Shown here: piece after piece, positions 19,234-27,467 of the stretch | Layout: each line of letters opens with the position of its first letter | Position numbering within the stretch: position 1 is the stretch's first letter | Virus record (IMG/VR): IMGVR_UViG_2585427757_000006 | DNA length: 64,000 nucleotides | Strand: one strand, 5' to 3' | DNA from: a virus | Taxonomy: Duplodnaviria; Heunggongvirae; Uroviricota; Caudoviricetes | Position numbers and translations under genes: made by a program | The notes under the pieces: model-generated | Told to the model about the DNA's origin: nothing | The model's database searches: none | What the model saw: only the letters and a program-made list of their open reading frames with translations

Positions 19234-19551
19234 TGGAGAGTTCCCTTTGCGTATATAATTATCGTCTGAAACAACTTGTTTTCTTATATGTGATATAGCC
19301 TAAATGCCTACGGCTGCGGTGTAAAGGTTAAATGGTAGGTTGTGATTAACAATTGGCAAACATAGCTTGTATTTGTCTGTTGAAAAAAGTAACAATGACC
19401 TCTATATTACAAGTACGGTGATATGCCGTACACAATTTGATAATGCACACGTAATGGGCTATAGCCTTTTAAAGTAATTTTTGAGTCGAAAACTCAGTTT
19501 GAACAGAGGAGATTGATGGCCTTCCTACATCACGGCCATCAGGAGGAATAC

Positions 19552-19821
19552 ATGTCAGCACTAAAAAAGCAGCGCATCGATTTGAGATTAACCGATGACG
19601 ATAAAAGCATCATCGAGGAAGCTGCCGCAATGTCTAACCAGAGCATTACTCAGTTTATGGTTAGCAGTGCATCTGAACGTGCCGTGAAAGTTATAGAGCA
19701 ACACCGTAGACTAGTTCTGAATGAAGAATCCTGGAATCTGGTTATGGACGCTATAAGCAATCCTCCGGCACCGAACGACAAGCTGAAACGAGCTGCTGAT
19801 CGTCTGAAAAGCATGGAGTAG
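19552..19821 (+). CDS. DUF1778 (TacA-like) antitoxin
   Basis: ATG at 19552 preceded by AGGAGG; about 90 aa, sequence RIDLRLTDDDKSIIEEAAAMSNQSITQFMV typical of DUF1778 antitoxins of GNAT toxins; ORF track start 19513 is probably upstream of the real start. Confidence 0.7.
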   Translation: MSALKKQRIDLRLTDDDKSIIEEAAAMSNQSITQFMVSSASERAVKVIEQHRRLVLNEESWNLVMDAISNPPAPNDKLKRAADRLKSME

Positions 19822-19828
19822 TTTACTC

Positions 19829-20350
19829 GTGGATAATATAAAGATAGAAATTTTCTCTGGAGAGAAAGATTATGATTTGAATGGTTTTGATTGCGGTGAA
19901 GAATCACTAAATGCCTTTTTAACCAACCACTTAAAAAGGCAGCATGAGGGAAAAATTCTTCGCGCTTATGTGCTTTGCACGAAAGAAGGCAGACCAAAAG
20001 TGTTAGGGTATTACACTTTGTCAGGTAGCTGCTTTGAAAAGGAGTCCTTACCTTCAAGAAGCCAGCAAAAGAAGGTACCTTATCGGAATGTTCCAAGTGT
20101 TACTTTGGGTAGGCTGGCTTTGGACAAGTCCCTTCAAGGTCAAGGATTTGGCTCAATGCTTGTAACACATGCAATGCGCGTTGTGTACAATGCATCTCTT
20201 GCTGTAGGCATTCATGGACTTTTCGTTGAGGCGTTAAATGACAAAGCCAAGGCGTTTTATAAAAGTTTAGACTTTATCCAGCTGGTTGGTAACAACGAGC
20301 GTTCTTTGTTCTATCCTACAAAATCTATCGAAAAATTGTTCGAAGAATAA
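19829..20350 (+). CDS. GNAT-family acetyltransferase toxin (TacT/AtaT-like)
   Basis: 173-aa ORF 8 bp after antitoxin; GNAT motif region LALDKSLQGQGFGSML. Confidence 0.7.
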   Translation: MDNIKIEIFSGEKDYDLNGFDCGEESLNAFLTNHLKRQHEGKILRAYVLCTKEGRPKVLGYYTLSGSCFEKESLPSRSQQKKVPYRNVPSVTLGRLALDKSLQGQGFGSMLVTHAMRVVYNASLAVGIHGLFVEALNDKAKAFYKSLDFIQLVGNNERSLFYPTKSIEKLFEE

Positions 20351-20381
20351 TGTACTCCCCTCAAGTGAGGGGAACTTCGCA

Positions 20382-20597
20382 TCACCAACCGCAAACTCTC
20401 TCTCCCATCGTATTGTGAAAAAGGATTTGGCGTTCGGTTTCTTCGGTCATCACATCATTATTGCTGATATAGATAGGCCCAGCTCCATCGCAGAACAATA
20501 CGCTGGCGGTTTGTGGTTTAATGACGCACCCACTTATCATACAACTCACGATGAACGGCAGAAGCATCTTTCTGACGTATTTTATTGCTCGTCTCAT
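20382..20597 (-). CDS. o-spanin candidate (lipoprotein overlapping i-spanin gene in another frame)
   Basis: 71-aa ORF with lipobox-like ISGC after hydrophobic stretch; overlaps 3' end of 20518-20769. Confidence 0.45.
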   Translation of the reverse strand: MRRAIKYVRKMLLPFIVSCMISGCVIKPQTASVLFCDGAGPIYISNNDVMTEETERQILFHNTMGERVCGW

Positions 20598-20769
20598 TCA
20601 CCACTTCCACTGTGCTTTGAAGTCGTTTTCTGTCTTCCTGTTTTGCCTTCTCTTCCATTGCTCGTCGCGCCGCATTCCCGCCCATCGTGTAAGCGCCGAC
20701 AAGAACGAAAAGAACGGCAGCCAGCGTAATCAAAGCAACTTTTAGCTTTGTCATCAGGCTGCCTAGCAT
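20518..20769 (-). CDS. i-spanin candidate (N-terminal TM plus coiled coil)
   Basis: 83-aa ORF; TM helix VALITLAAVLFVLVGAY then charged helical region. Confidence 0.5.
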   Translation of the reverse strand: MLGSLMTKLKVALITLAAVLFVLVGAYTMGGNAARRAMEEKAKQEDRKRLQSTVEVVNETSNKIRQKDASAVHRELYDKWVRH

Positions 20770-20770
20770 A

Positions 20771-21490
20771 TTAGACCATCCCTTTCTGGTGTTTTCTTAC
20801 CTGCGACCAGGCAATGAATCCGGCCACAACAATAGTGGCAATACCGAAGATGATGCGTACTGTATCCCCGCTAGAGATATGACCTTGTGCTTTATCCATA
20901 GCAGCGGAAACCTGCGGCATAACATCGGCCAGCTGCGCCAGACCAATACCTGCTGTAACAGTTGCGCCTGCGGTTTCTTTAGTTACAGGAACAGCCTTCA
21001 CGGTTTTCACCGGCTTAACAACGCCAGCTCGACGCAGACCTTCCTCAATAACTTCTGCCGCATACCAGGTGTTCAGCGTTTTTAGCGGACCTCGCCCATT
21101 CTCATGGCGAATGATTGCCTCAACCAAAGGTCGAAGAATGTCGTAATCATGCAGATCGATAATCATGTCTGCGGTTACACCAACGGCTTTAGACACCTCA
21201 TTAATGTAGGCGTCAGTATTGTTTTCATTCGGCGGTGCCCAACGTTCAATAACTTCACGAATGGTATCGATACTTGAGCCGTCTTTTGCGCGACGTTTGT
21301 CGTGGTAGGTAATTAGAGTCACCGCCAGCGCACGAATCCCCCAAACAGGGTCTTTAAACGTGCAAAAGCGCGGTTCGTCTGGATTCGCAACCAGACCTTG
21401 CCACGGTGATCCTTTATCAAGATTACCGGGGTTATTATTACGAATGCCTCTCGGAGTCTTCATCCTTGATCTCCTGTTATTGCAGTCCAC
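20771..21490 (-). CDS. endolysin-like protein with C-terminal transmembrane helix
   Basis: 239-aa ORF; N-terminal NNPGN motif region; C-terminal hydrophobic IIFGIATIVVAGFIAW; position between holin-like gene and spanins. Confidence 0.5.
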   Translation of the reverse strand: MDCNNRRSRMKTPRGIRNNNPGNLDKGSPWQGLVANPDEPRFCTFKDPVWGIRALAVTLITYHDKRRAKDGSSIDTIREVIERWAPPNENNTDAYINEVSKAVGVTADMIIDLHDYDILRPLVEAIIRHENGRGPLKTLNTWYAAEVIEEGLRRAGVVKPVKTVKAVPVTKETAGATVTAGIGLAQLADVMPQVSAAMDKAQGHISSGDTVRIIFGIATIVVAGFIAWSQVRKHQKGMV

Positions 21491-21812
21491 TTTTTACGCC
21501 ATACGCGGCTAACCCCAAAAGCAGTGCGGTAATAATGAACGACGTTATTTTAGAAACAATGCCGCCAAAGAACCCACTTGAGATGGAATCTAACCGGTTA
21601 AGGAGTTTGTCCAGATTGGAGTGTTGAATACTATGTTGCGCCGGGGTCATATCACCAAAGTAGGTTTTCAGCTGATCATTGACCTCCTGGCCAATTTCTT
21701 CACGTAGCTCTTTACCTAATTTGCCAACAACCTCCCGAGCAACGATCGCGGCAATACGCTCAACTTGCTCTGTTGTAACGCCCGCCATCTCGTTCGACAT
21801 GTTTTCCTCCAT
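21477..21812 (-). CDS. holin candidate
   Basis: 111-aa ORF with C-terminal TM segment ITSFIITALLLGLAAYGV; first gene of lysis block. Confidence 0.45.
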   Translation of the reverse strand: MEENMSNEMAGVTTEQVERIAAIVAREVVGKLGKELREEIGQEVNDQLKTYFGDMTPAQHSIQHSNLDKLLNRLDSISSGFFGGIVSKITSFIITALLLGLAAYGVKSGLQ

Positions 21813-21881
21813 GAAAAGTCAAATCGGGATGGCGGATTTATATCACATTTCACCCTTTTGTTGTAGGTGTGTACTTACCTA

Positions 21882-22115
21882 TCATTCAGCATTGCAACCG
21901 ATTGATGAGAAAGCACCTACTCCAACCCATCGCCAGTTATAGATGCTACCCGCTTTGTATAAGGTATAGTCGTTCACTTTTTTAACAGCATATATGGGTA
22001 TGACTGTCTCCTGTCCACCAATGATAGCTTCACCATAACATATAGGTGTCGGCAATTTCTGGCAGCCAGTAAGAGAGAGAACAACAGCTATTGTTAGAAA
22101 TAATCTTTTCATCAT
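21882..22115 (-). CDS. small lipoprotein (candidate receptor-blocking superinfection-exclusion protein)
   Basis: 77-aa ORF with signal peptide plus lipobox LTGC; located immediately downstream of tail-fibre genes. Confidence 0.5.
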   Translation of the reverse strand: MMKRLFLTIAVVLSLTGCQKLPTPICYGEAIIGGQETVIPIYAVKKVNDYTLYKAGSIYNWRWVGVGAFSSIGCNAE

Positions 22116-22122
22116 TTACTCA

Positions 22123-22731
22123 TCAGTTATACAGATTTCTATTTATTACCGGTACTCTGCCATTTACGCTAAAACTATGGCCGCCATTAAGTTGGTTTAC
22201 GAATATCGAGCTAACAGTATTTCCATATGCCGCATATCCATAAACCATTGTCATGGCTCCGCCCGGTACTGGAACAGCGAACACATTCGCATATGTTGGG
22301 ATTATCGCTGGAGGGTAATCAAAAACATGCCCTCCAGAGCTGTTCCACTCCGTATTATTAAGAAAGGTAAATGAAAGTGGGATATTTGCCGTATTATAGA
22401 TTTCCCCCCCTTGTGCATTGAAAAAACTCATGCCCCAAGTTTCTTTTTTGGCTATACCTTTCGAAAATACGTATATCGTGGCACTAGAGTCGCTACCCTG
22501 ACCTCCGAAACTGTAAATCACCTGGTTGTTACGCACTATTCTGTTGGCTATTAATGAAACAGCTTTCGAATAGGCAACAAAAATAATCGGTGAACGATCT
22601 GGAGATATTTTGGTGTTAAACTCTGTCCCGCCGGACAAAGAAACAACCTGCTTTCTCTGAAAAACGATAGGAGACAAAGAAGGAGACATCCAGACCTTCC
22701 CGTCAGATCGATATATCTTGCTTCCGTACAT
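22123..22731 (-). CDS. tail-fibre-associated hypothetical protein
   Basis: 202-aa ORF translationally coupled (TAATG) to upstream ORF; Gly/Ser/Asn-rich. Confidence 0.45.
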   Translation of the reverse strand: MYGSKIYRSDGKVWMSPSLSPIVFQRKQVVSLSGGTEFNTKISPDRSPIIFVAYSKAVSLIANRIVRNNQVIYSFGGQGSDSSATIYVFSKGIAKKETWGMSFFNAQGGEIYNTANIPLSFTFLNNTEWNSSGGHVFDYPPAIIPTYANVFAVPVPGGAMTMVYGYAAYGNTVSSIFVNQLNGGHSFSVNGRVPVINRNLYN

Positions 22732-22985
22732 TATTTTTGAAAAACCAATATGTTTAAATTACCACTAGCTCCAGACCACGAAATGGTATTTCCAGAAACC
22801 GTAAGACTTGTGTACTTTCCATTGGTTACGTCCATTATGTAATAGTCGATTCCCAATCCCGCCTCAACCTCATATGTTCTACTTCCTGAACCAGAGGGAG
22901 TAAAATAATCGAGGTAATAAACAGGGGCCAACGCATTGACCATCTCCTGTCTTGATGGCGACCAAACCTGTGCACCATAGCTCAT
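22731..22985 (-). CDS. tail-fibre-associated hypothetical protein
   Basis: 84-aa ORF downstream of side tail fibre. Confidence 0.4.
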   Translation of the reverse strand: MSYGAQVWSPSRQEMVNALAPVYYLDYFTPSGSGSRTYEVEAGLGIDYYIMDVTNGKYTSLTVSGNTISWSGASGNLNILVFQK

Positions 22986-23045: not shown

Positions 23046-26000
23046 TTATTCTTTAGGTGAATTTAACTTCGTTTCAAGCTCCTCAACCCTTTTGGTCAAT
23101 TGCTGAATATGATGAATGAGTGGTACAACCAAACGCTCATACATCACTCCTTCAGCGACCATACCATTTGAGGAAATATCTTCTGGAGAATCATTATTTG
23201 TTGGTTCACGCCAATGGACATATTGCGGGGCAATCTCACCAACCTCTTCAGCAATAAGGCCGTAATACCCCCAATCCTTTCGGTCACCTCGACAAATTGA
23301 ACGATACCAAACAGGTCTTAATGACAAAAGTTCATCAGCATATCGATCTTGTAATGTTTCAATATCCTTTTTATAGCGCCTTGAAGACGTTGAACGCCAA
23401 ACTGTATTGATACCTGGGTTTGGATCAATGTACATATTGGCACCGCTAGTAGTTGTGCCAATATCCCATATAGCAAACCCTCCACTACCGCCTGATTTGA
23501 CAACCAGTGTTTCAGCAACAATATCCAGGTTGCCACTATAGCCTGTCAGTGATGATCTGCTTGCATAGGAGCTTAGAAGGTTTGCTACCTCTGTTTTCGT
23601 GTAAGCATTAAGGTTAGCCGCAGTCAAAGTTATATCGGCAGAGCCATCAAACGCCACACCAGCAATTTTCCTTGCTGTCTGCAATTTTGTGGCGGTTGCG
23701 GCATTACCAGTAGTGTTCTGATTACCAGTTGTATTCACACCAGGGATTGAATCCTTAGCGGTATATACCTGCGCCCACGCTGACCATGCTGCACCTGTGT
23801 TATCTCTTCGTGAGCGAATGAAAACTGGCGCATGTGCACCGCTCGTACCACTCCAGCCAATAAGCAACTCGCCCTCACCAGCAGCACTCGCACCTTTCAT
23901 GTGCAATACGTTGCCATACGTGGTCGGGTAGCTATTGTTGTACGCCTCATACATTTGAATGCCAGCAGTGCCTTGAGTAGAGCCGCTTAACGCCGTAACT
24001 CGGCCACGAGATACCAATGTATTAATGTTGATATCGCCTGAACCATCAAACTTAACACCATTGATGTTTCTCGCTGTTTGCAACTTCGTAGCTGTTGAAG
24101 CATTACCGTTCAAACTACCATTTACGCCACCAGTCACATTTAGTCCATTACCAATTGATACAGCACCGCTGGTATTATTAATTGTAATCGGTCGCAAACC
24201 GTTCCATGAACCTAATGTGTCTCCTGATGCTGTTAGCAGGAAATATGTGTTCGCCCCATCATTACGGATAAAGAACCCATAGTTACCGTAAGCAATGCGG
24301 AAACCATTTGCATATTTTGAAACGATCTCACCAGAAGACGTTACCCCCCCAGATAATGTGCCACCTGAAAGCGGTAATGCTCCTACATCAGAAGCTGTTG
24401 GTTTGTTTCTGGTGTTATAAGAACGACGCCAGCCTGGCGCATAATCACTTCCATTGTACACATAAATAAATTCCGCATTATTAACACCACCATGACCCGA
24501 TGTTGTTGTCGTTGTAACACGAATAGTGTAATGGCTTGTTGCCTTATTACTAAACACCTCAATCACGGAACCAGATAGATCGATCCTACCGCAACCAGTG
24601 TCGTCTATATAATTATTGTTGGCGTAAGCCCATGAGCACCGTGCAATCCAATATTTGTTTGAAAATGCACCCTGATTATTTAGCCACGTTATAAACTGAG
24701 CAGTCGTAAATGCTGTTCCGTTACCACTATTTAACCATCCGGCGGCAGCGGTTGGTGCGTTTATATCAGCCGGCTGAGGCATAAATCCAGTCGTGTAAAC
24801 CTGCTCCCAACCACTTTCAAAACCATAGCCATCTCTTGAGGAACGGTAGAACAGACCACCATTTTTATAGTGAGCTTTAATTTGAAGCGTACGGCAACTA
24901 CCTACACCGGTATAAAAGTTGGCAAGAATATAACTAGCGCCTGCTCTAGTTACATTGTAAGCACCAGATTCAGCATTCCACGGCACGCCACCATCAGCAT
25001 CCGCATATGTATCCGTTGCCCTTCTGGCAAAAGCAGCCACATGCGCGGCGGTTAAAGTGATATCTTTGGAACCATCAAACTCAACACCAGAAACCCGTCT
25101 TGGCGTTTGCAGCTTTGTTGCTGTTAATGCATTACCGTTCAGACTTGCGGACAGTTTGGTTCCAATAACCAGTTCGCCGGTTGCGTTATCAATAGCAAAC
25201 GGTCTTAATGTATTCCAGCCACCATAAACATCACCTTGATTGGTAAGCAGCAGGTAAGTTTTAGCGCCATCATTACGCCATAATGCCCCATACTCCCCAC
25301 CTATCATTCGAATCTGATTACCACCACGCGCTACAATTTCGTCTGTGGCAAAAAGTTTTTTGCACGACAAGTTATCGTTAACGATTAACGAATGAGACTC
25401 ATAAAAACCACGCCCACTCTTAAAATCAAGGATAACGTCCGCCGCGATACATTCAATCGCCGGATTTGTTGCCCCAAACTTATAGGTCGTATCATTAACA
25501 ACGAGATCCGCACCAGGTGCGGATATTGACAGGCCATCTTCAATAAACGCAAAAACAGGGAAAGCAGCACCATCAACATAGAACACAGAGCGCAAATCAT
25601 CGCCCTTATTACTCATCATTATTGAGTGGATGGCTCGTTCATTGTTTTGATATTGCCAGAACATTCCATAAGCATAACGCCCCCTGTCAGTCCAGCCACC
25701 AGGCATAACAAATCCGTTAAACTCGCAGTTATTCATCGGATCGCCTGCGGTTCGCGTTGCCGTGGTGATAATGACCCTTGATGCCAGTTCGCTTACTGAG
25801 CCAGCAGAACGCATAACAACAACAGGGTAATATTTTCCAGATGTTGCACCTGCAGGAGCGTTAACCCGCACATAACGCATACCACGCTTATCAGCAAAGT
25901 CTGTTTTACTGACCGCGTTAATGTTGTTCAGGAAGCGTCCCTTATCGGGTATATCAGCGCCGTTCTGGTCTTTCTGCAGACGTTTCTCTGCATTGTCATA

Positions 26001-27467
26001 GGCTGATTTTACTGCCTTTGGCGTTGCCGCCAGCGTCTCAGACGTACTGTTGGTCGCACTGCTGAGCTGTACTATCCCCTTTTTCGTCGTACTTGCATCC
26101 TCAAGCGCCACGGCGGATGCAATATCCTCTGCCCGTTTTGCCGCTGTCTCGGCGCGCGTTGCCGCGGATTCCGCCGTACTTTTGCTCTGTGCTGCCGCCG
26201 TCGCACTGCCAGCTGCCTCTGTCGCCTTCGTGGATGCTGTCGTGGCGCTGCCCTTCGCTGCGGACGCTTGTCTGGTCGCCTCATCTTTTGAAGCAGACGC
26301 CGATGATGCCGATGACGCTGCCGAACTGGCGGACGATGCGGCTGCCGTTTTTGAGGATTCTGCACGGGTTTCCGACGCTTTCGCGTTCGTTTCGGATGTC
26401 TTCGCTGCGGAAGCAGACCTCGCTGCTGCGCTGGCCTGTTCAGTGGCTTCGCCAGCCTTCGTTGTGGCTGTTGAAGCAGACGATGCGGCACTTTCTGCCG
26501 ATTTTCCGGCGGCGGTGGCACTGGCTGAGGCCTGCCCGGCACTTGTTGACGCGGCACTTGCAGACGACGCAGCCGCTGTTTTTGAGCCTGCCGCAGCCGA
26601 GGCGCTCTGTCCCGCTGCCGTTTCAGAAGACCTGGCGTTCGTCTCGGACGTTTTTGCCGCCTTCGCGGAATTTCCTGCCGCCGTTGCCGAGGAAGCGGCA
26701 TTACTGGCGCTCGAGGCTGCGTTCGTTTCTGATGATTTCGCTGCCTCTTTTGAGGCCGCCGCATCCCGGGCTGAGGTGGCAGCTTCTGACGCCTTCGTGG
26801 TCGCGGTGGATGCAGAAGTGGCTGCAGATTTTTGTGACGCTGCAGCATTCGTTTCAGATTTTTTCGCAGCAGTTGCACTCGCACTTGCGGCACTTTGTGA
26901 GGATGCCGCAGCGGATGCACTTTGAGACGCTTGAGAGGCTTTTTCTCCAGCGGCATTGGCGCTTTTTGCTGCTGCGGCAGCACTGGCCGCCGCCTCACGA
27001 GCTTTGTCGCCAGCAGCATCAATCGCGTCAGTGTTATTTTTATACCACTCAACGTTTTCGTTGTGCTCGTTGACGATCTGCATTAGCGGCTTAACGGTCA
27101 CTTCTGTACCGTCTTCACGCTCGATTGTCACCTCATCCAGCGCAGTCAACCAACTGCGTATGGACTTGGAATCAGCCGACATACGCGACATTAGCGCAGT
27201 AAAACGCGCGCTAAACTGTGTTAAGTCGCCTTCATAGGTCGTAATGATTCGGCACGGAACCTCAGACTGAGTTTCGCCGGTATAAGGTTCTGAGAGAACA
27301 ATATTCGTATCGCTTATTACGCGCTTGATCTCATACAGCTTATTGTCGGGGCCAATGACGATCATCCCCGGCAACACACCATTAGCTGTTACGTTCCAGG
27401 CTGTCCCTGCCCCAACCAGAGTATTGCTACCATGTGTAAATGTGATAGTACCTTCCCTGTACCACAT
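23046..27467 (-). CDS. side tail fibre protein with Ala/Ser/Thr-rich repeat region, phage-fibre repeats and C-terminal S74-type intramolecular chaperone
   Basis: 1473-aa ORF; three copies of ...TATKLQTAR..G..FDGS.DI.. motif; C-terminal DIETLQDRY...GYYGLIAEEV...SSNGMVAEGVMYERL resembles chaperone-of-endosialidase domain. Confidence 0.8.
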   Translation of the reverse strand: MWYREGTITFTHGSNTLVGAGTAWNVTANGVLPGMIVIGPDNKLYEIKRVISDTNIVLSEPYTGETQSEVPCRIITTYEGDLTQFSARFTALMSRMSADSKSIRSWLTALDEVTIEREDGTEVTVKPLMQIVNEHNENVEWYKNNTDAIDAAGDKAREAAASAAAAAKSANAAGEKASQASQSASAAASSQSAASASATAAKKSETNAAASQKSAATSASTATTKASEAATSARDAAASKEAAKSSETNAASSASNAASSATAAGNSAKAAKTSETNARSSETAAGQSASAAAGSKTAAASSASAASTSAGQASASATAAGKSAESAASSASTATTKAGEATEQASAAARSASAAKTSETNAKASETRAESSKTAAASSASSAASSASSASASKDEATRQASAAKGSATTASTKATEAAGSATAAAQSKSTAESAATRAETAAKRAEDIASAVALEDASTTKKGIVQLSSATNSTSETLAATPKAVKSAYDNAEKRLQKDQNGADIPDKGRFLNNINAVSKTDFADKRGMRYVRVNAPAGATSGKYYPVVVMRSAGSVSELASRVIITTATRTAGDPMNNCEFNGFVMPGGWTDRGRYAYGMFWQYQNNERAIHSIMMSNKGDDLRSVFYVDGAAFPVFAFIEDGLSISAPGADLVVNDTTYKFGATNPAIECIAADVILDFKSGRGFYESHSLIVNDNLSCKKLFATDEIVARGGNQIRMIGGEYGALWRNDGAKTYLLLTNQGDVYGGWNTLRPFAIDNATGELVIGTKLSASLNGNALTATKLQTPRRVSGVEFDGSKDITLTAAHVAAFARRATDTYADADGGVPWNAESGAYNVTRAGASYILANFYTGVGSCRTLQIKAHYKNGGLFYRSSRDGYGFESGWEQVYTTGFMPQPADINAPTAAAGWLNSGNGTAFTTAQFITWLNNQGAFSNKYWIARCSWAYANNNYIDDTGCGRIDLSGSVIEVFSNKATSHYTIRVTTTTTSGHGGVNNAEFIYVYNGSDYAPGWRRSYNTRNKPTASDVGALPLSGGTLSGGVTSSGEIVSKYANGFRIAYGNYGFFIRNDGANTYFLLTASGDTLGSWNGLRPITINNTSGAVSIGNGLNVTGGVNGSLNGNASTATKLQTARNINGVKFDGSGDININTLVSRGRVTALSGSTQGTAGIQMYEAYNNSYPTTYGNVLHMKGASAAGEGELLIGWSGTSGAHAPVFIRSRRDNTGAAWSAWAQVYTAKDSIPGVNTTGNQNTTGNAATATKLQTARKIAGVAFDGSADITLTAANLNAYTKTEVANLLSSYASRSSLTGYSGNLDIVAETLVVKSGGSGGFAIWDIGTTTSGANMYIDPNPGINTVWRSTSSRRYKKDIETLQDRYADELLSLRPVWYRSICRGDRKDWGYYGLIAEEVGEIAPQYVHWREPTNNDSPEDISSNGMVAEGVMYERLVVPLIHHIQQLTKRVEELETKLNSPKE

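What the first reader, a model, noticed from the sequence alone, without database searches (positions are those of the whole stretch)
20382..21812. Lysis cassette with embedded o-spanin and an endolysin-like protein carrying a C-terminal transmembrane helix
The 20382-20597 ORF lies in an alternative frame overlapping the i-spanin-like gene (Rz/Rz1-like architecture). The putative endolysin has an NNPGN region and a C-terminal hydrophobic helix, which is unusual for endolysins. The holin assignment rests only on a TM segment.
Basis: partly seen in the sequence, partly recalled or inferred. Interest (0 to 1): 0.4.

Follow-up and report, generated by a model that had tools for sequence, protein, structure and literature searches.

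The report
Lysis cassette of SSU5-like phage-plasmid
This is the four-gene cell-bursting module of a common E. coli phage-plasmid (SSU5/Cyrano type); its membrane-anchored cell-wall enzyme looks odd but belongs to a class already described and crystallised, so the finding is real but ordinary.

Summary
Window 20354-21800 (minus strand) is the lysis cassette of an SSU5-like phage-plasmid. It is 98% identical to Escherichia phage Cyrano, where the four genes are annotated holin, endolysin, Rz and Rz1. It occurs on about 110-kb plasmids in 250 of 5,426 complete E. coli genomes.

The "endolysin with a C-terminal TM helix" is real. It is an Enc34/M4Lys/Siskin-type (PHA02564) enzyme: E=1.5e-54 to PDB 7Q47, catalytic Glu/Trp/Tyr conserved, and a conserved C-terminal two-helix membrane domain. 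This class was reported in 2019-2022, and how the enzyme reaches the cell wall is still unknown.

The spanin pair is real: phrog_1026 and phrog_1275, lipobox ISGC with Cys24. Its architecture is overlapped (80 nt, +1 frame, P2-like), not embedded.

The "holin" (phrog_5093, function unknown) is a tail-anchored protein of 107 aa with an invariant HxxxH motif. Its distant relatives sit first in lysis cassettes with at least four unrelated endolysin types, so it is a lysis gene. They usually lie next to another small membrane protein, so holin versus regulator is unresolved.

Verdict: already known, low interest.

The parts
21477..21800 (-). Holin-position gene, 107 aa, phrog_5093 (function unknown). 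Predicted as helix 10-48, an FGDMTP turn, then helix 53-103 whose last ~20 residues form the only TM segment (81-99). G49, H56 and H60 are invariant (HxxxH). Probably tail-anchored with the N-terminus inside the cell.
   Evidence: GGAGG Shine-Dalgarno 5 nt before ATG 21800; phrog_5093, E=2e-68; hydropathy; 54 representative clusters, invariant residues; AF2 model; first gene of lysis cassettes.
20771..21463 (-). Enc34/M4Lys-type endolysin, 230 aa. It has an N-terminal PHA02564 catalytic domain (~1-150) and a linker plus C-terminal two-helix membrane domain.
   Evidence: 7Q47, E=1.5e-54; phrog_873 endolysin, E=6e-89; 2,295 homologues, mostly 226-240 aa; AF2, catalytic domain pLDDT ~90; Foldseek top hit 7Q47.
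21101..21103 (-). Codon of Glu121 (RHENG), equivalent to the catalytic Glu131 of Enc34. W75 and Y86 correspond to Enc34 W79 and Y95.
   Evidence: Invariant in alignment A2; aligned to 7Q47; roles from PMC8943055. Codon position read.
20906..20974 (-). Endolysin helix 1 (residues 164-186, TAGATVTAGIGLAQLADVMPQVS). It is weakly hydrophobic, ~52% Gly/Ala/Ser/Thr, with conserved Q177 and D/E180. Its composition resembles a SAR domain, and whether it spans the membrane is uncertain.
   Evidence: KD 0.84-1.1; summed Hessa scale +12.9; conservation; helical but pLDDT <50.
20798..20863 (-). Endolysin helix 2 (residues 201-222, TVRIIFGIATIVVAGFIAWSQV). This is the strong TM segment, followed by the basic tail RKHQKGMV, so the C-terminus is predicted to be cytoplasmic.
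   Evidence: KD ~1.75-2.07; tail net charge +3; (K/R)(K/R)(H/Y)Q conserved in most of the 31 homologues.
20518..20769 (-). i-spanin, 83 aa. It has an N-terminal TM segment (11-29) and a ~53-residue charged periplasmic region ending in the conserved L..W.R motif.
   Evidence: phrog_1026 Rz-like spanin, E=9e-25; (alignment with Chivirus, Pasteurella and Alcaligenaceae homologues).
20382..20597 (-). o-spanin, 71-aa precursor, in the +1 frame. It overlaps the i-spanin gene by 80 nt (20518-20597) and extends 136 nt beyond it. Signal peptide MRRAIKYVRKMLLPFIVSCMISG|C; lipobox ISGC; Cys24 codon at 20526-20528; +2 residue Val. C36 and C69 are conserved.
   Evidence: phrog_1275, E=2e-24; G23, C24, C36 and C69 invariant; PMC6139136 lists the SSU5 o-spanin in the Chi family.
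20354..20375 (-). Terminator-like hairpin (GTTCCCCTCACTTGAGGGGAGT plus a T-rich tail), 7 nt after the o-spanin stop. It lies between the lysis cassette and the convergent GNAT toxin gene.
   Evidence: No sigma-70-like promoter was found inside 20200-22300, so the cassette is probably the tail end of the late structural operon (inference).

Best explanation
This is the functional lysis module at the 3' end of the late (virion) operon of an SSU5-like temperate phage-plasmid of E. coli. It has four genes.

1. A 107-aa tail-anchored membrane protein (phrog_5093) in the holin position.
2. A 230-aa Enc34/M4Lys-type endolysin. Its all-helical PHA02564 catalytic domain is probably an N-acetylglucosaminidase using Glu121. 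The domain is tethered to the inner membrane by a conserved C-terminal pair of helices: a weak, SAR-like helix 1, then a strong helix 2 with a basic cytoplasmic tail.
3. An 83-aa i-spanin anchored in the inner membrane.
4. A 48-aa mature outer-membrane lipoprotein o-spanin. It is translated from a +1-frame gene that overlaps the end of the i-spanin gene.

Proposed sequence of events:
- The endolysin accumulates at the inner membrane in a harmless state.
- At a set time the membrane is permeabilised or depolarised by the phrog_5093 protein, the endolysin's own membrane domain, or both.
- The catalytic domain reaches the murein and degrades it.
- The spanin complex then fuses the inner and outer membranes, releasing virions.

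Shown here: gene identities, homology, conserved catalytic and lipobox residues, and gene architecture. Taken from homologues in the literature: muralytic activity, and lysis that depends on the TMD but not on a holin or Sec. Inferred: topology, the trigger, and the role of phrog_5093.
For: Element identity:
- 98% nt identity to phage Cyrano and 82% to SSU5. Both are annotated holin/endolysin/spanins.
- 99.9% identity to E. coli plasmid NZ_OP242221.
- Found on plasmids only, in 250 of 5,426 complete E. coli genomes.

Endolysin:
- PDB 7Q47 at E=1.5e-54.
- AF2 model matches 7Q47 at TM 0.82.
- W75, Y86 and E121 are invariant.
- Full-length Chivirus homologues are 55% identical over 95% of the length.
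- Enc34 and M4Lys catalytic domains lyse permeabilised Gram-negative cells. Full-length M4Lys lyses E. coli without a holin and without Sec, and needs its TMD (PMC8943055, PMC7143992).
- No other endolysin is annotated in Cyrano.

Spanins:
- PHROG lysis families, TM segment and lipobox, conserved across three bacterial families.

phrog_5093:
- Relatives lie directly upstream of Enc34-type, Peptidase_M15_3, GH108/PG_binding_3 and phrog_669 endolysins.

Operon end:
- Terminator-like hairpin after the o-spanin gene.
Against: [quoted passage not shown] How the enzyme reaches murein is therefore unknown, as the Enc34 authors also say.
- Helix 1 is only marginally hydrophobic and the AF2 model is unconfident there (pLDDT <50 for 158-198), so the topology is not settled.
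- phrog_5093 has no experimental function and no Pfam or NCBIfam model.
- phrog_5093 lacks the long charged C-terminal tail typical of holins.
- In most distant contexts phrog_5093 co-occurs with another small 1-3-TMD protein, including an annotated 3-TMD holin. It may therefore not be the holin itself.
- Nothing was tested experimentally for this sequence.
Confidence: 0.85

Rival explanations
1. The endolysin is a natural holin-endolysin fusion. Its C-terminal helix pair is the membrane-lesion module, and the upstream phrog_5093 protein is not the holin. Instead it is a tail-anchored timer, antiholin or partner whose cytoplasmic HxxxH motif senses or regulates.
For: - Full-length M4Lys lyses E. 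coli alone. The upstream ORF is dispensable and slightly delays lysis. Deleting 13 C-terminal residues abolishes lysis (PMC7143992).
- The C-terminal domain is as conserved as the catalytic domain, including polar residues Q177, S198 and Q221.
- Where phrog_5093 relatives accompany soluble or SAR endolysins, a further small 1-3-TMD protein is present. The two Enc34-type cassettes (window and L009) lack one.
- Catalytic-domain-only PHA02564 endolysins in Nonagvirus and CSP1 are followed immediately by a separate 3-TMD holin gene.
- The L009 homologue has lost W75, Y86 and E121 but keeps the membrane domain.
Against: - Expression of the M4Lys TMD alone is only bacteriostatic, not lytic.
- Holin-independent lysis may be an overexpression artefact, a caveat raised by the Enc34 authors.
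- The Chivirus upstream ORF is unrelated to phrog_5093, so M4Lys co-expression data do not transfer directly.
- The fused domain shows no sequence similarity to any holin.
- The context sample is small (10 loci), and L009 is a single metagenomic contig.
Confidence: 0.3
2. The 230-aa protein is mainly a virion-associated (entry) peptidoglycan hydrolase rather than the endolysin. Its membrane helices would serve during DNA ejection.
For: The PHA02564 domain was first named 'virion protein'. It occurs inside internal virion/ejectosome proteins, tape-measure proteins and head proteins: phrog_7182, phrog_2276 and phrog_992; PDB 9vvp Gp29 core protein; T7-like internal virion proteins.
Against: - The gene sits between the holin-position gene and the spanins, after the tail-fibre genes.
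- Full-length homologues with the same architecture cause lysis from within.
- No alternative endolysin is annotated in Cyrano.
- Virion-associated versions are domains of much larger proteins and lack this C-terminal domain (coverage ~50-60%).
Confidence: 0.05
3. The cassette is a decaying remnant on a plasmid that no longer functions as a phage.
For: RefSeq annotates these genes on E. coli plasmids only as hypothetical or membrane proteins, and the o-spanin is not called. Most such plasmids have never been shown to produce virions.
Against: - All four ORFs are intact, with good ribosome-binding sites.
- The cassette is 98% identical to that of the sequenced phage Cyrano and 82% to the isolated phage SSU5.
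- It is conserved at 80-100% identity in 403 plasmids.
- A full virion module precedes it in the window.
Confidence: 0.05

Closest known systems
Hafnia phage Enc34 ORF39 endolysin (PDB 7Q47; PMC8943055) and its cassette ORF38-41
   Same: - PHA02564 all-helical catalytic domain (59% identity, TM 0.82).
- The same catalytic Glu/Trp/Tyr.
- The same C-terminal two-helix membrane domain.
- The same gene order (small membrane protein, endolysin, i-spanin, overlapped o-spanin).
- Homologous spanins.
   Different: [quoted passage not shown] Here the first gene (phrog_5093) has its TM helix at the C-terminus and is unrelated in sequence (tested against the Chivirus homologue).
- The host element is a ~110-kb phage-plasmid, not a ~60-kb Chi-like siphovirus.
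- The Enc34 paper describes the architecture as limited to Chivirus and some related viruses, and its text does not mention SSU5. Here it also appears in SSU5-like phage-plasmids and in Pasteurella and Alcaligenaceae prophages.
M4Lys of Salmonella phage BSPM4 (PMC7143992), and the putative endolysin of phage Siskin with its proposed 'class IV' holin (PMC6498227)
   Same: - The same endolysin family and architecture. Chivirus homologues are 55% identical over 95% of the length.
- The basic tail after the last helix is conserved.
   Different: The functional data (lysis independent of holin and Sec, TMD required, GlcNAc-releasing activity) exist only for M4Lys and are extrapolated here. The upstream partner protein is a different family.
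Salmonella phage SSU5 gp026-030 and Escherichia phage Cyrano CYRAN_22-25
   Same: Orthologous cassette (82% and 98% nt identity), already annotated as holin, endolysin, Rz and Rz1.
   Different: - The Cyrano Rz1 annotation (39 aa) starts downstream of the lipobox and is truncated.
- Cyrano lacks the three small genes (including cor) that separate the tail fibre from the cassette here and in SSU5.
Phage P2 lysB/lysC (overlapped two-component spanin) versus lambda Rz/Rz1 (embedded)
   Same: i-spanin with an N-terminal TMD. The o-spanin lipoprotein gene starts in the +1 frame inside the i-spanin gene.
   Different: As in P2, and unlike lambda, the o-spanin gene runs past the i-spanin stop. The i-spanin is short (83 aa). 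No sequence relationship to P2 or lambda spanins was seen.
SAR endolysins (P1 Lyz, phage 21 R21) with pinholin S21
   Same: Works alike in outline: a membrane-tethered muralytic enzyme with a weakly hydrophobic Gly/Ala/Ser/Thr-rich helix, and lysis on overexpression without a holin.
   Different: The hydrophobic helices are at the C-terminus, so Sec-dependent export of the catalytic domain through an N-terminal signal anchor cannot apply. There is no N-terminal SAR domain.

Membership tests
Enc34/M4Lys-type (PHA02564) endolysins with a C-terminal membrane domain | N-terminal catalytic domain homologous in sequence and fold to Enc34 ORF39 (PDB 7Q47) | tested here: met
   phmmer E=1.5e-54 over residues 10-160 of the 239-aa ORF. 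The AF2 model against 7Q47 gives Foldseek E=7.5e-16, target-normalised TM 0.82 and 59% identity.
Enc34/M4Lys-type (PHA02564) endolysins with a C-terminal membrane domain | Catalytic Glu (Enc34 E131) plus Trp79 and Tyr95 equivalents | tested here: met
   E121, W75 and Y86 are invariant in 31 homologues and aligned to the Enc34 chain. Their roles are taken from PMC8943055.
Enc34/M4Lys-type (PHA02564) endolysins with a C-terminal membrane domain | C-terminal two-helix hydrophobic domain followed by a basic tail | tested here: met
   Helix 2 (201-222) has KD ~1.75-2.07 with tail RKHQK. Helix 1 (164-186) is weakly hydrophobic. Both are conserved and predicted helical. Membrane insertion of helix 1 is not established.
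Enc34/M4Lys-type (PHA02564) endolysins with a C-terminal membrane domain | Muralytic activity, and TMD-dependent lysis from within | not testable with these tools
   Shown only for Enc34 and M4Lys.
Two-component spanin, overlapped architecture (Chi o-spanin family of Kongari et al. 2018) | i-spanin: N-terminal TMD plus a periplasmic helical domain | tested here: met
   TM segment at 11-29 (KD 2.38). phrog_1026 Rz-like spanin, E=9e-25. Aligns with Chivirus, Pasteurella and Alcaligenaceae i-spanins.
Two-component spanin, overlapped architecture (Chi o-spanin family of Kongari et al. 2018) | o-spanin: lipoprotein signal with a lipobox Cys, and an outer-membrane sorting residue (+2 not Asp) | tested here: met
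   ISGC with Cys24 and +2 Val. G23 and C24 are invariant in 5 homologues. phrog_1275, E=2e-24. No dedicated predictor such as LipoP was available.
Two-component spanin, overlapped architecture (Chi o-spanin family of Kongari et al. 2018) | The o-spanin gene starts inside the i-spanin gene in another frame and extends beyond its stop | tested here: met
   Start at 20597 in the +1 frame. The i-spanin stop is at 20518-20520 and the o-spanin ends at 20382.
Lambda-type embedded Rz/Rz1 | The o-spanin gene lies wholly within the i-spanin gene | tested here: not met
   136 of 216 nt lie outside the i-spanin gene.
Holins (canonical classes I-III) | Small phage membrane protein with at least one TMD, encoded next to the endolysin | tested here: met
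   107 aa with one TM segment (81-99). The stop lies 13 nt before the endolysin start. Relatives sit at the start of lysis cassettes with at least four endolysin types.
Holins (canonical classes I-III) | Membership of a described holin family or topology class, with a hydrophilic charged C-terminal tail | tested here: not met
   No Pfam or NCBIfam hit. phrog_5093 is labelled 'unknown function'. The TM segment is at the extreme C-terminus with an 8-residue tail carrying one Lys. No relation to the Chivirus upstream ORF.
Holins (canonical classes I-III) | Lethal, energy-poison-triggerable hole formation that releases endolysin | not testable with these tools
   No experimental data were found for any phrog_5093 member. 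Among 50,697 phage records, matches were found only in 12 SSU5-like phages.
SAR endolysins | N-terminal signal-anchor-release domain | tested here: not met
   There is no hydrophobic segment in the first 30 residues. The only such segments are C-terminal.

The most novel reading that the evidence does not exclude
The first gene (phrog_5093) is not a classical holin. It would be a new, widespread family of tail-anchored lysis regulators or partners carrying an invariant cytoplasmic HxxxH motif. The endolysin's conserved C-terminal helix pair would be the actual membrane-lesion module. The cassette would then encode a natural holin-endolysin fusion controlled by a separate timer.
Probability: 0.25. 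Interest if true: 0.6.

Novelty: already known. Interest (0 to 1): 0.22.

Why it matters
As given, the finding adds little. The cassette is annotated in near-identical phages, and the endolysin class has a crystal structure and functional papers. Three modest points remain.

1. How a C-terminally anchored endolysin reaches the cell wall has been open since 2019. SSU5-like phage-plasmids are present in about 4.6% of complete E. coli genomes, so they offer a tractable E. coli system in which to test it.
2. The holin-position protein belongs to an uncharacterised family (phrog_5093). It has an invariant HxxxH motif and heads lysis cassettes with several unrelated endolysins.
3. In RefSeq plasmid records these genes are 'hypothetical' or 'membrane protein', the o-spanin is not called, and Cyrano's Rz1 is truncated. 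The annotation can be corrected.

Tried and rejected
- Pfam and NCBIfam gave nothing above cut-off for any of the four proteins.
- hhalign of the phrog_5093 family profile against the Chivirus upstream ORF (SPN19_037) and against the Alcaligenaceae 99-aa protein with a C-terminal TM segment showed no relationship (probability ≤1%).
- Fusion-by-homology idea: phmmer of the endolysin C-terminal 85 residues against the separately encoded holins and neighbours downstream of catalytic-domain-only PHA02564 endolysins (Nonagvirus, CSP1, Stenotrophomonas S1) found no similarity.
- Dual-start (holin/antiholin) motif: M1 and M5 are present here, but M5 is not conserved in the family. Rejected as evidence.
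- No sigma-70-like promoter was found within 20200-22300.
- The search for related loci with family alignments A3 and A6 failed because no conserved stretch was long enough, so a larger context survey was not possible.
- tblastn with distant family members recovered only the 12 SSU5-like phages.
- The AF2 model of the endolysin membrane domain is too unconfident (pLDDT ~40) to say whether the two helices form a hairpin.
- The phrog_5093 model has pTM 0.31, so no fold search was run on it.
Full report
**What is there.** The minus strand of 20354-21800 carries four tightly packed ORFs followed by a hairpin.

- A 107-aa ORF at 21477-21800.
- A 230-aa ORF at 20771-21463.
- An 83-aa ORF at 20518-20769.
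- A 71-aa ORF at 20382-20597. It is in the +1 frame relative to the 83-aa ORF and shares 80 nt with it.

- The ATG at 21812 overlaps the GGAGG that serves the ATG at 21800.
- The GTG at 21490 lies inside the upstream gene, whereas ATG 21463 has an AGGAG upstream.
- Homologues are 107 aa and 230 aa respectively.

**Where it comes from.** The cassette matches known phages and plasmids closely.

- It is 98% identical to Escherichia phage Cyrano and 82% to Salmonella phage SSU5. In both, the four genes are annotated holin, endolysin, Rz and Rz1.
- It is 99.9% identical to a 109.6-kb E. coli plasmid and is found in 403 PLSDB plasmids.
- It occurs in 250 of 5,426 complete E. coli genomes, always on plasmids.
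- The rest of the window fits an SSU5-like phage-plasmid. Terminase-to-tail-fibre genes lie upstream on the same strand. ParA, a DUF1778/GNAT toxin-antitoxin pair, a helicase and a tRNA cluster lie on the other side.
- The cassette closes the late operon. No sigma-70-like promoter lies inside it, and a terminator-like hairpin follows it.

- The protein matches the crystallised catalytic domain of the Hafnia phage Enc34 endolysin (PDB 7Q47) at E=1.5e-54.
- The AlphaFold model (catalytic domain pLDDT ~90) superposes on 7Q47 with TM 0.82 and 59% identity.
- In an alignment of 31 homologues down to 56% identity, W75, Y86 and E121 are invariant. They correspond to Enc34 W79, Y95 and the catalytic E131 (PMC8943055).
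- The C-terminal third is about as conserved as the enzyme domain. It comprises a PVTKET linker, a weakly hydrophobic Gly/Ala/Ser/Thr-rich helix (164-186, with conserved Q177 and an acidic residue), a short polar loop, a strong TM helix (201-222) and a basic tail.

This is the 'N-terminal catalytic domain plus C-terminal two-helix TMD' architecture already in the literature.

- It was first noted for phage Siskin (PMC6498227).
- It was characterised functionally as M4Lys of phage BSPM4 (PMC7143992).
- It was characterised structurally for Enc34 (PMC8943055).
- Chivirus homologues are 55% identical over 95% of the length.

The feature is therefore unusual among endolysins in general, but it is a described class. 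It is also broader than the Enc34 paper states, since full-length homologues occur in prophages of Pasteurella and Alcaligenaceae with the same spanins. The family has no Pfam or NCBIfam model. This explains why RefSeq calls it 'membrane protein'.

**The spanins.**

- The 83-aa protein has an N-terminal TM segment and a charged periplasmic region (phrog_1026, E=9e-25).
- The 71-aa protein is phrog_1275 (E=2e-24), with a basic n-region, a hydrophobic core and the lipobox ISGC.
- G23, C24, C36 and C69 are invariant across five homologues from three bacterial families. The i-spanin C-terminal L..W.R motif is also conserved.
- The o-spanin gene starts inside the i-spanin gene and extends 136 nt beyond it. 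In the terminology of Kongari et al., who list the SSU5 o-spanin in the Chi family, this is 'overlapped', not 'embedded' (PMC6139136).
- Cyrano's Rz1 annotation (39 aa) starts after the lipobox and is truncated. RefSeq does not call the gene at all.

- The protein is phrog_5093, 'unknown function'.
- A word-seeded search finds it only in SSU5-like elements.
- Matches were found in only 12 of 50,697 phage records, all SSU5-like.
- An exhaustive profile search finds 54 representative clusters of 100-140 aa. They share one plan: a charged N-terminal helix, an FGDMTP turn, an invariant HxxxH (H56, H60) with G49, then a C-terminal TM segment.
- AlphaFold gives two long helices, 10-48 and 53-103. 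The flanking charges suggest an N-in, tail-anchored topology (inference).
- Ten loci with distant members were examined. In eight of them the gene is the first of a recognisable lysis or small-membrane-protein cluster. It lies directly upstream of an Enc34-type protein (L009), Peptidase_M15_3 endolysins (L011, L012, L013, L017), a GH108/PG_binding_3 endolysin (L020), or a 3-TMD phrog_8226 holin plus a phrog_669 endolysin (L018).

That association with at least four unrelated muralytic families is good evidence that it is a lysis gene. However, where the endolysin is soluble or SAR-like, another small 1-3-TMD protein is usually present too. Only the Enc34-type cassettes lack one. Whether phrog_5093 is the holin, a second holin, or an antiholin/timer is therefore open. 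It is unrelated to the upstream ORF of Chiviruses, which has an N-terminal TM segment.

**Mechanism.** The best-supported model is a standard three-step lysis: membrane lesion, murein degradation, then spanin-mediated membrane fusion. The enzyme is held at the inner membrane by its C-terminal helices.

The step that cannot be explained is how the N-terminal catalytic domain reaches the periplasm.

- By the positive-inside rule, the basic tail places the C-terminus in the cytoplasm.
- If only helix 2 spans the membrane, about 200 residues would have to be translocated without a signal sequence.
- If both helices span, the enzyme is cytoplasmic until a lesion forms.

M4Lys data bear on this: lysis occurs without the upstream ORF and despite azide; the TMD is required; and the TMD alone is only bacteriostatic. 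These leave room for a self-contained 'holin-endolysin fusion' with phrog_5093 as a regulator.

Three observations made here lean that way.

- Cassettes containing phrog_5093 follow the complementary pattern of small TMD proteins described above.
- Catalytic-domain-only PHA02564 endolysins in Nonagvirus and CSP1 are followed at once by a separate holin gene.
- One divergent homologue (L009) has lost W75, Y86 and E121 but keeps the membrane domain.

None of these is decisive. The fused domain has no sequence similarity to those holins, the sample is small, and L009 is one metagenomic contig.

**Verdict.** The object is already known: it is annotated in near-identical phages, and the endolysin class, its structure and the spanin family are published. 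Interest is low. The residual value lies in the unsolved export mechanism of this endolysin class, the uncharacterised phrog_5093 family, and annotation fixes for several hundred enterobacterial plasmids.

Noticed in passing
L009:3368-4063 (Logan SRR30563942 contig): A divergent homologue of the endolysin (40% identity) has W75->Y, Y86->Q and E121->Y, and only 10% identity over residues 57-104. It keeps the linker and both C-terminal helices at 42-57% identity. It may be a catalytically dead protein retained for its membrane module, or a decaying element.
   Followed up: partly
L022 (Escherichia phage FritzHoffmann) 1489-2245; L023 (Cronobacter phage CSP1) 1489-2307: PHA02564 endolysins that lack the membrane domain (144-145 aa) are followed immediately by a separately encoded 3-TMD holin gene, in the position that the fused TMD occupies here. 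No sequence similarity to the fused domain was found.
   Followed up: partly
window 19513-20350 (+): A DUF1778 antitoxin (about 89 aa from the internal start) and a GNAT acetyltransferase toxin (173 aa) form a KacAT/TacAT-like toxin-antitoxin pair. It converges on the lysis cassette and shares the hairpin at 20354-20375.
   Followed up: partly
window 21882-22985 (-): Three small genes lie between the tail fibre and the lysis cassette: phrog_557 'outer membrane protein' (84 aa), phrog_425 'membrane associated protein' (202 aa), and a Cor superinfection-exclusion lipoprotein (77 aa, lipobox LTGC). They are present in SSU5 but absent from Cyrano, which explains why Cyrano matches only 83% of the query region.
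   Followed up: partly
window 18206-18565 (-): A 119-aa ORF directly downstream of parA is annotated 'RelE/ParE putative toxin' in Cyrano. By its position and its C-terminal half it looks more like a small ParG/RHH-type centromere-binding partner of ParA. PHROGs gives only 'unknown function' (phrog_5111).
   Followed up: no
window 7162-7719 (-): A cluster of four tRNA genes (Ser-tga, Thr-tgt, Tyr-gta, Asn-gtt). Cyrano annotates only three (Asn, Thr, Ser) at the corresponding place.
   Followed up: no
window 23046-27467 (-): A 1,473-aa tail-fibre ORF with a ~330-residue Ala/Ser/Thr-rich low-complexity tract near the N-terminus. This tract generates long spurious ORFs on both strands at 26050-27073. 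The C-terminal end resembles an intramolecular-chaperone (S74-like) module, judged by eye and not tested.
   Followed up: no
L001 3084-3203 (Cyrano CYRAN_25); L008 (RefSeq NZ_CP023851): Annotation errors in public records. Cyrano's Rz1 is truncated to 39 aa and so lacks its signal peptide and lipobox. RefSeq plasmid records omit the o-spanin gene and label the endolysin 'membrane protein'.
   Followed up: yes
L006:3705-4004 (Alcaligenaceae prophage): The gene upstream of the Enc34-type endolysin encodes a 99-aa protein with the same plan as phrog_5093: a hydrophilic helical N-terminal part, an HxxxH-like pair (HRRYH) and a C-terminal TM segment. hhalign detects no homology, so this could be convergence or divergence beyond detection.
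   Followed up: partly
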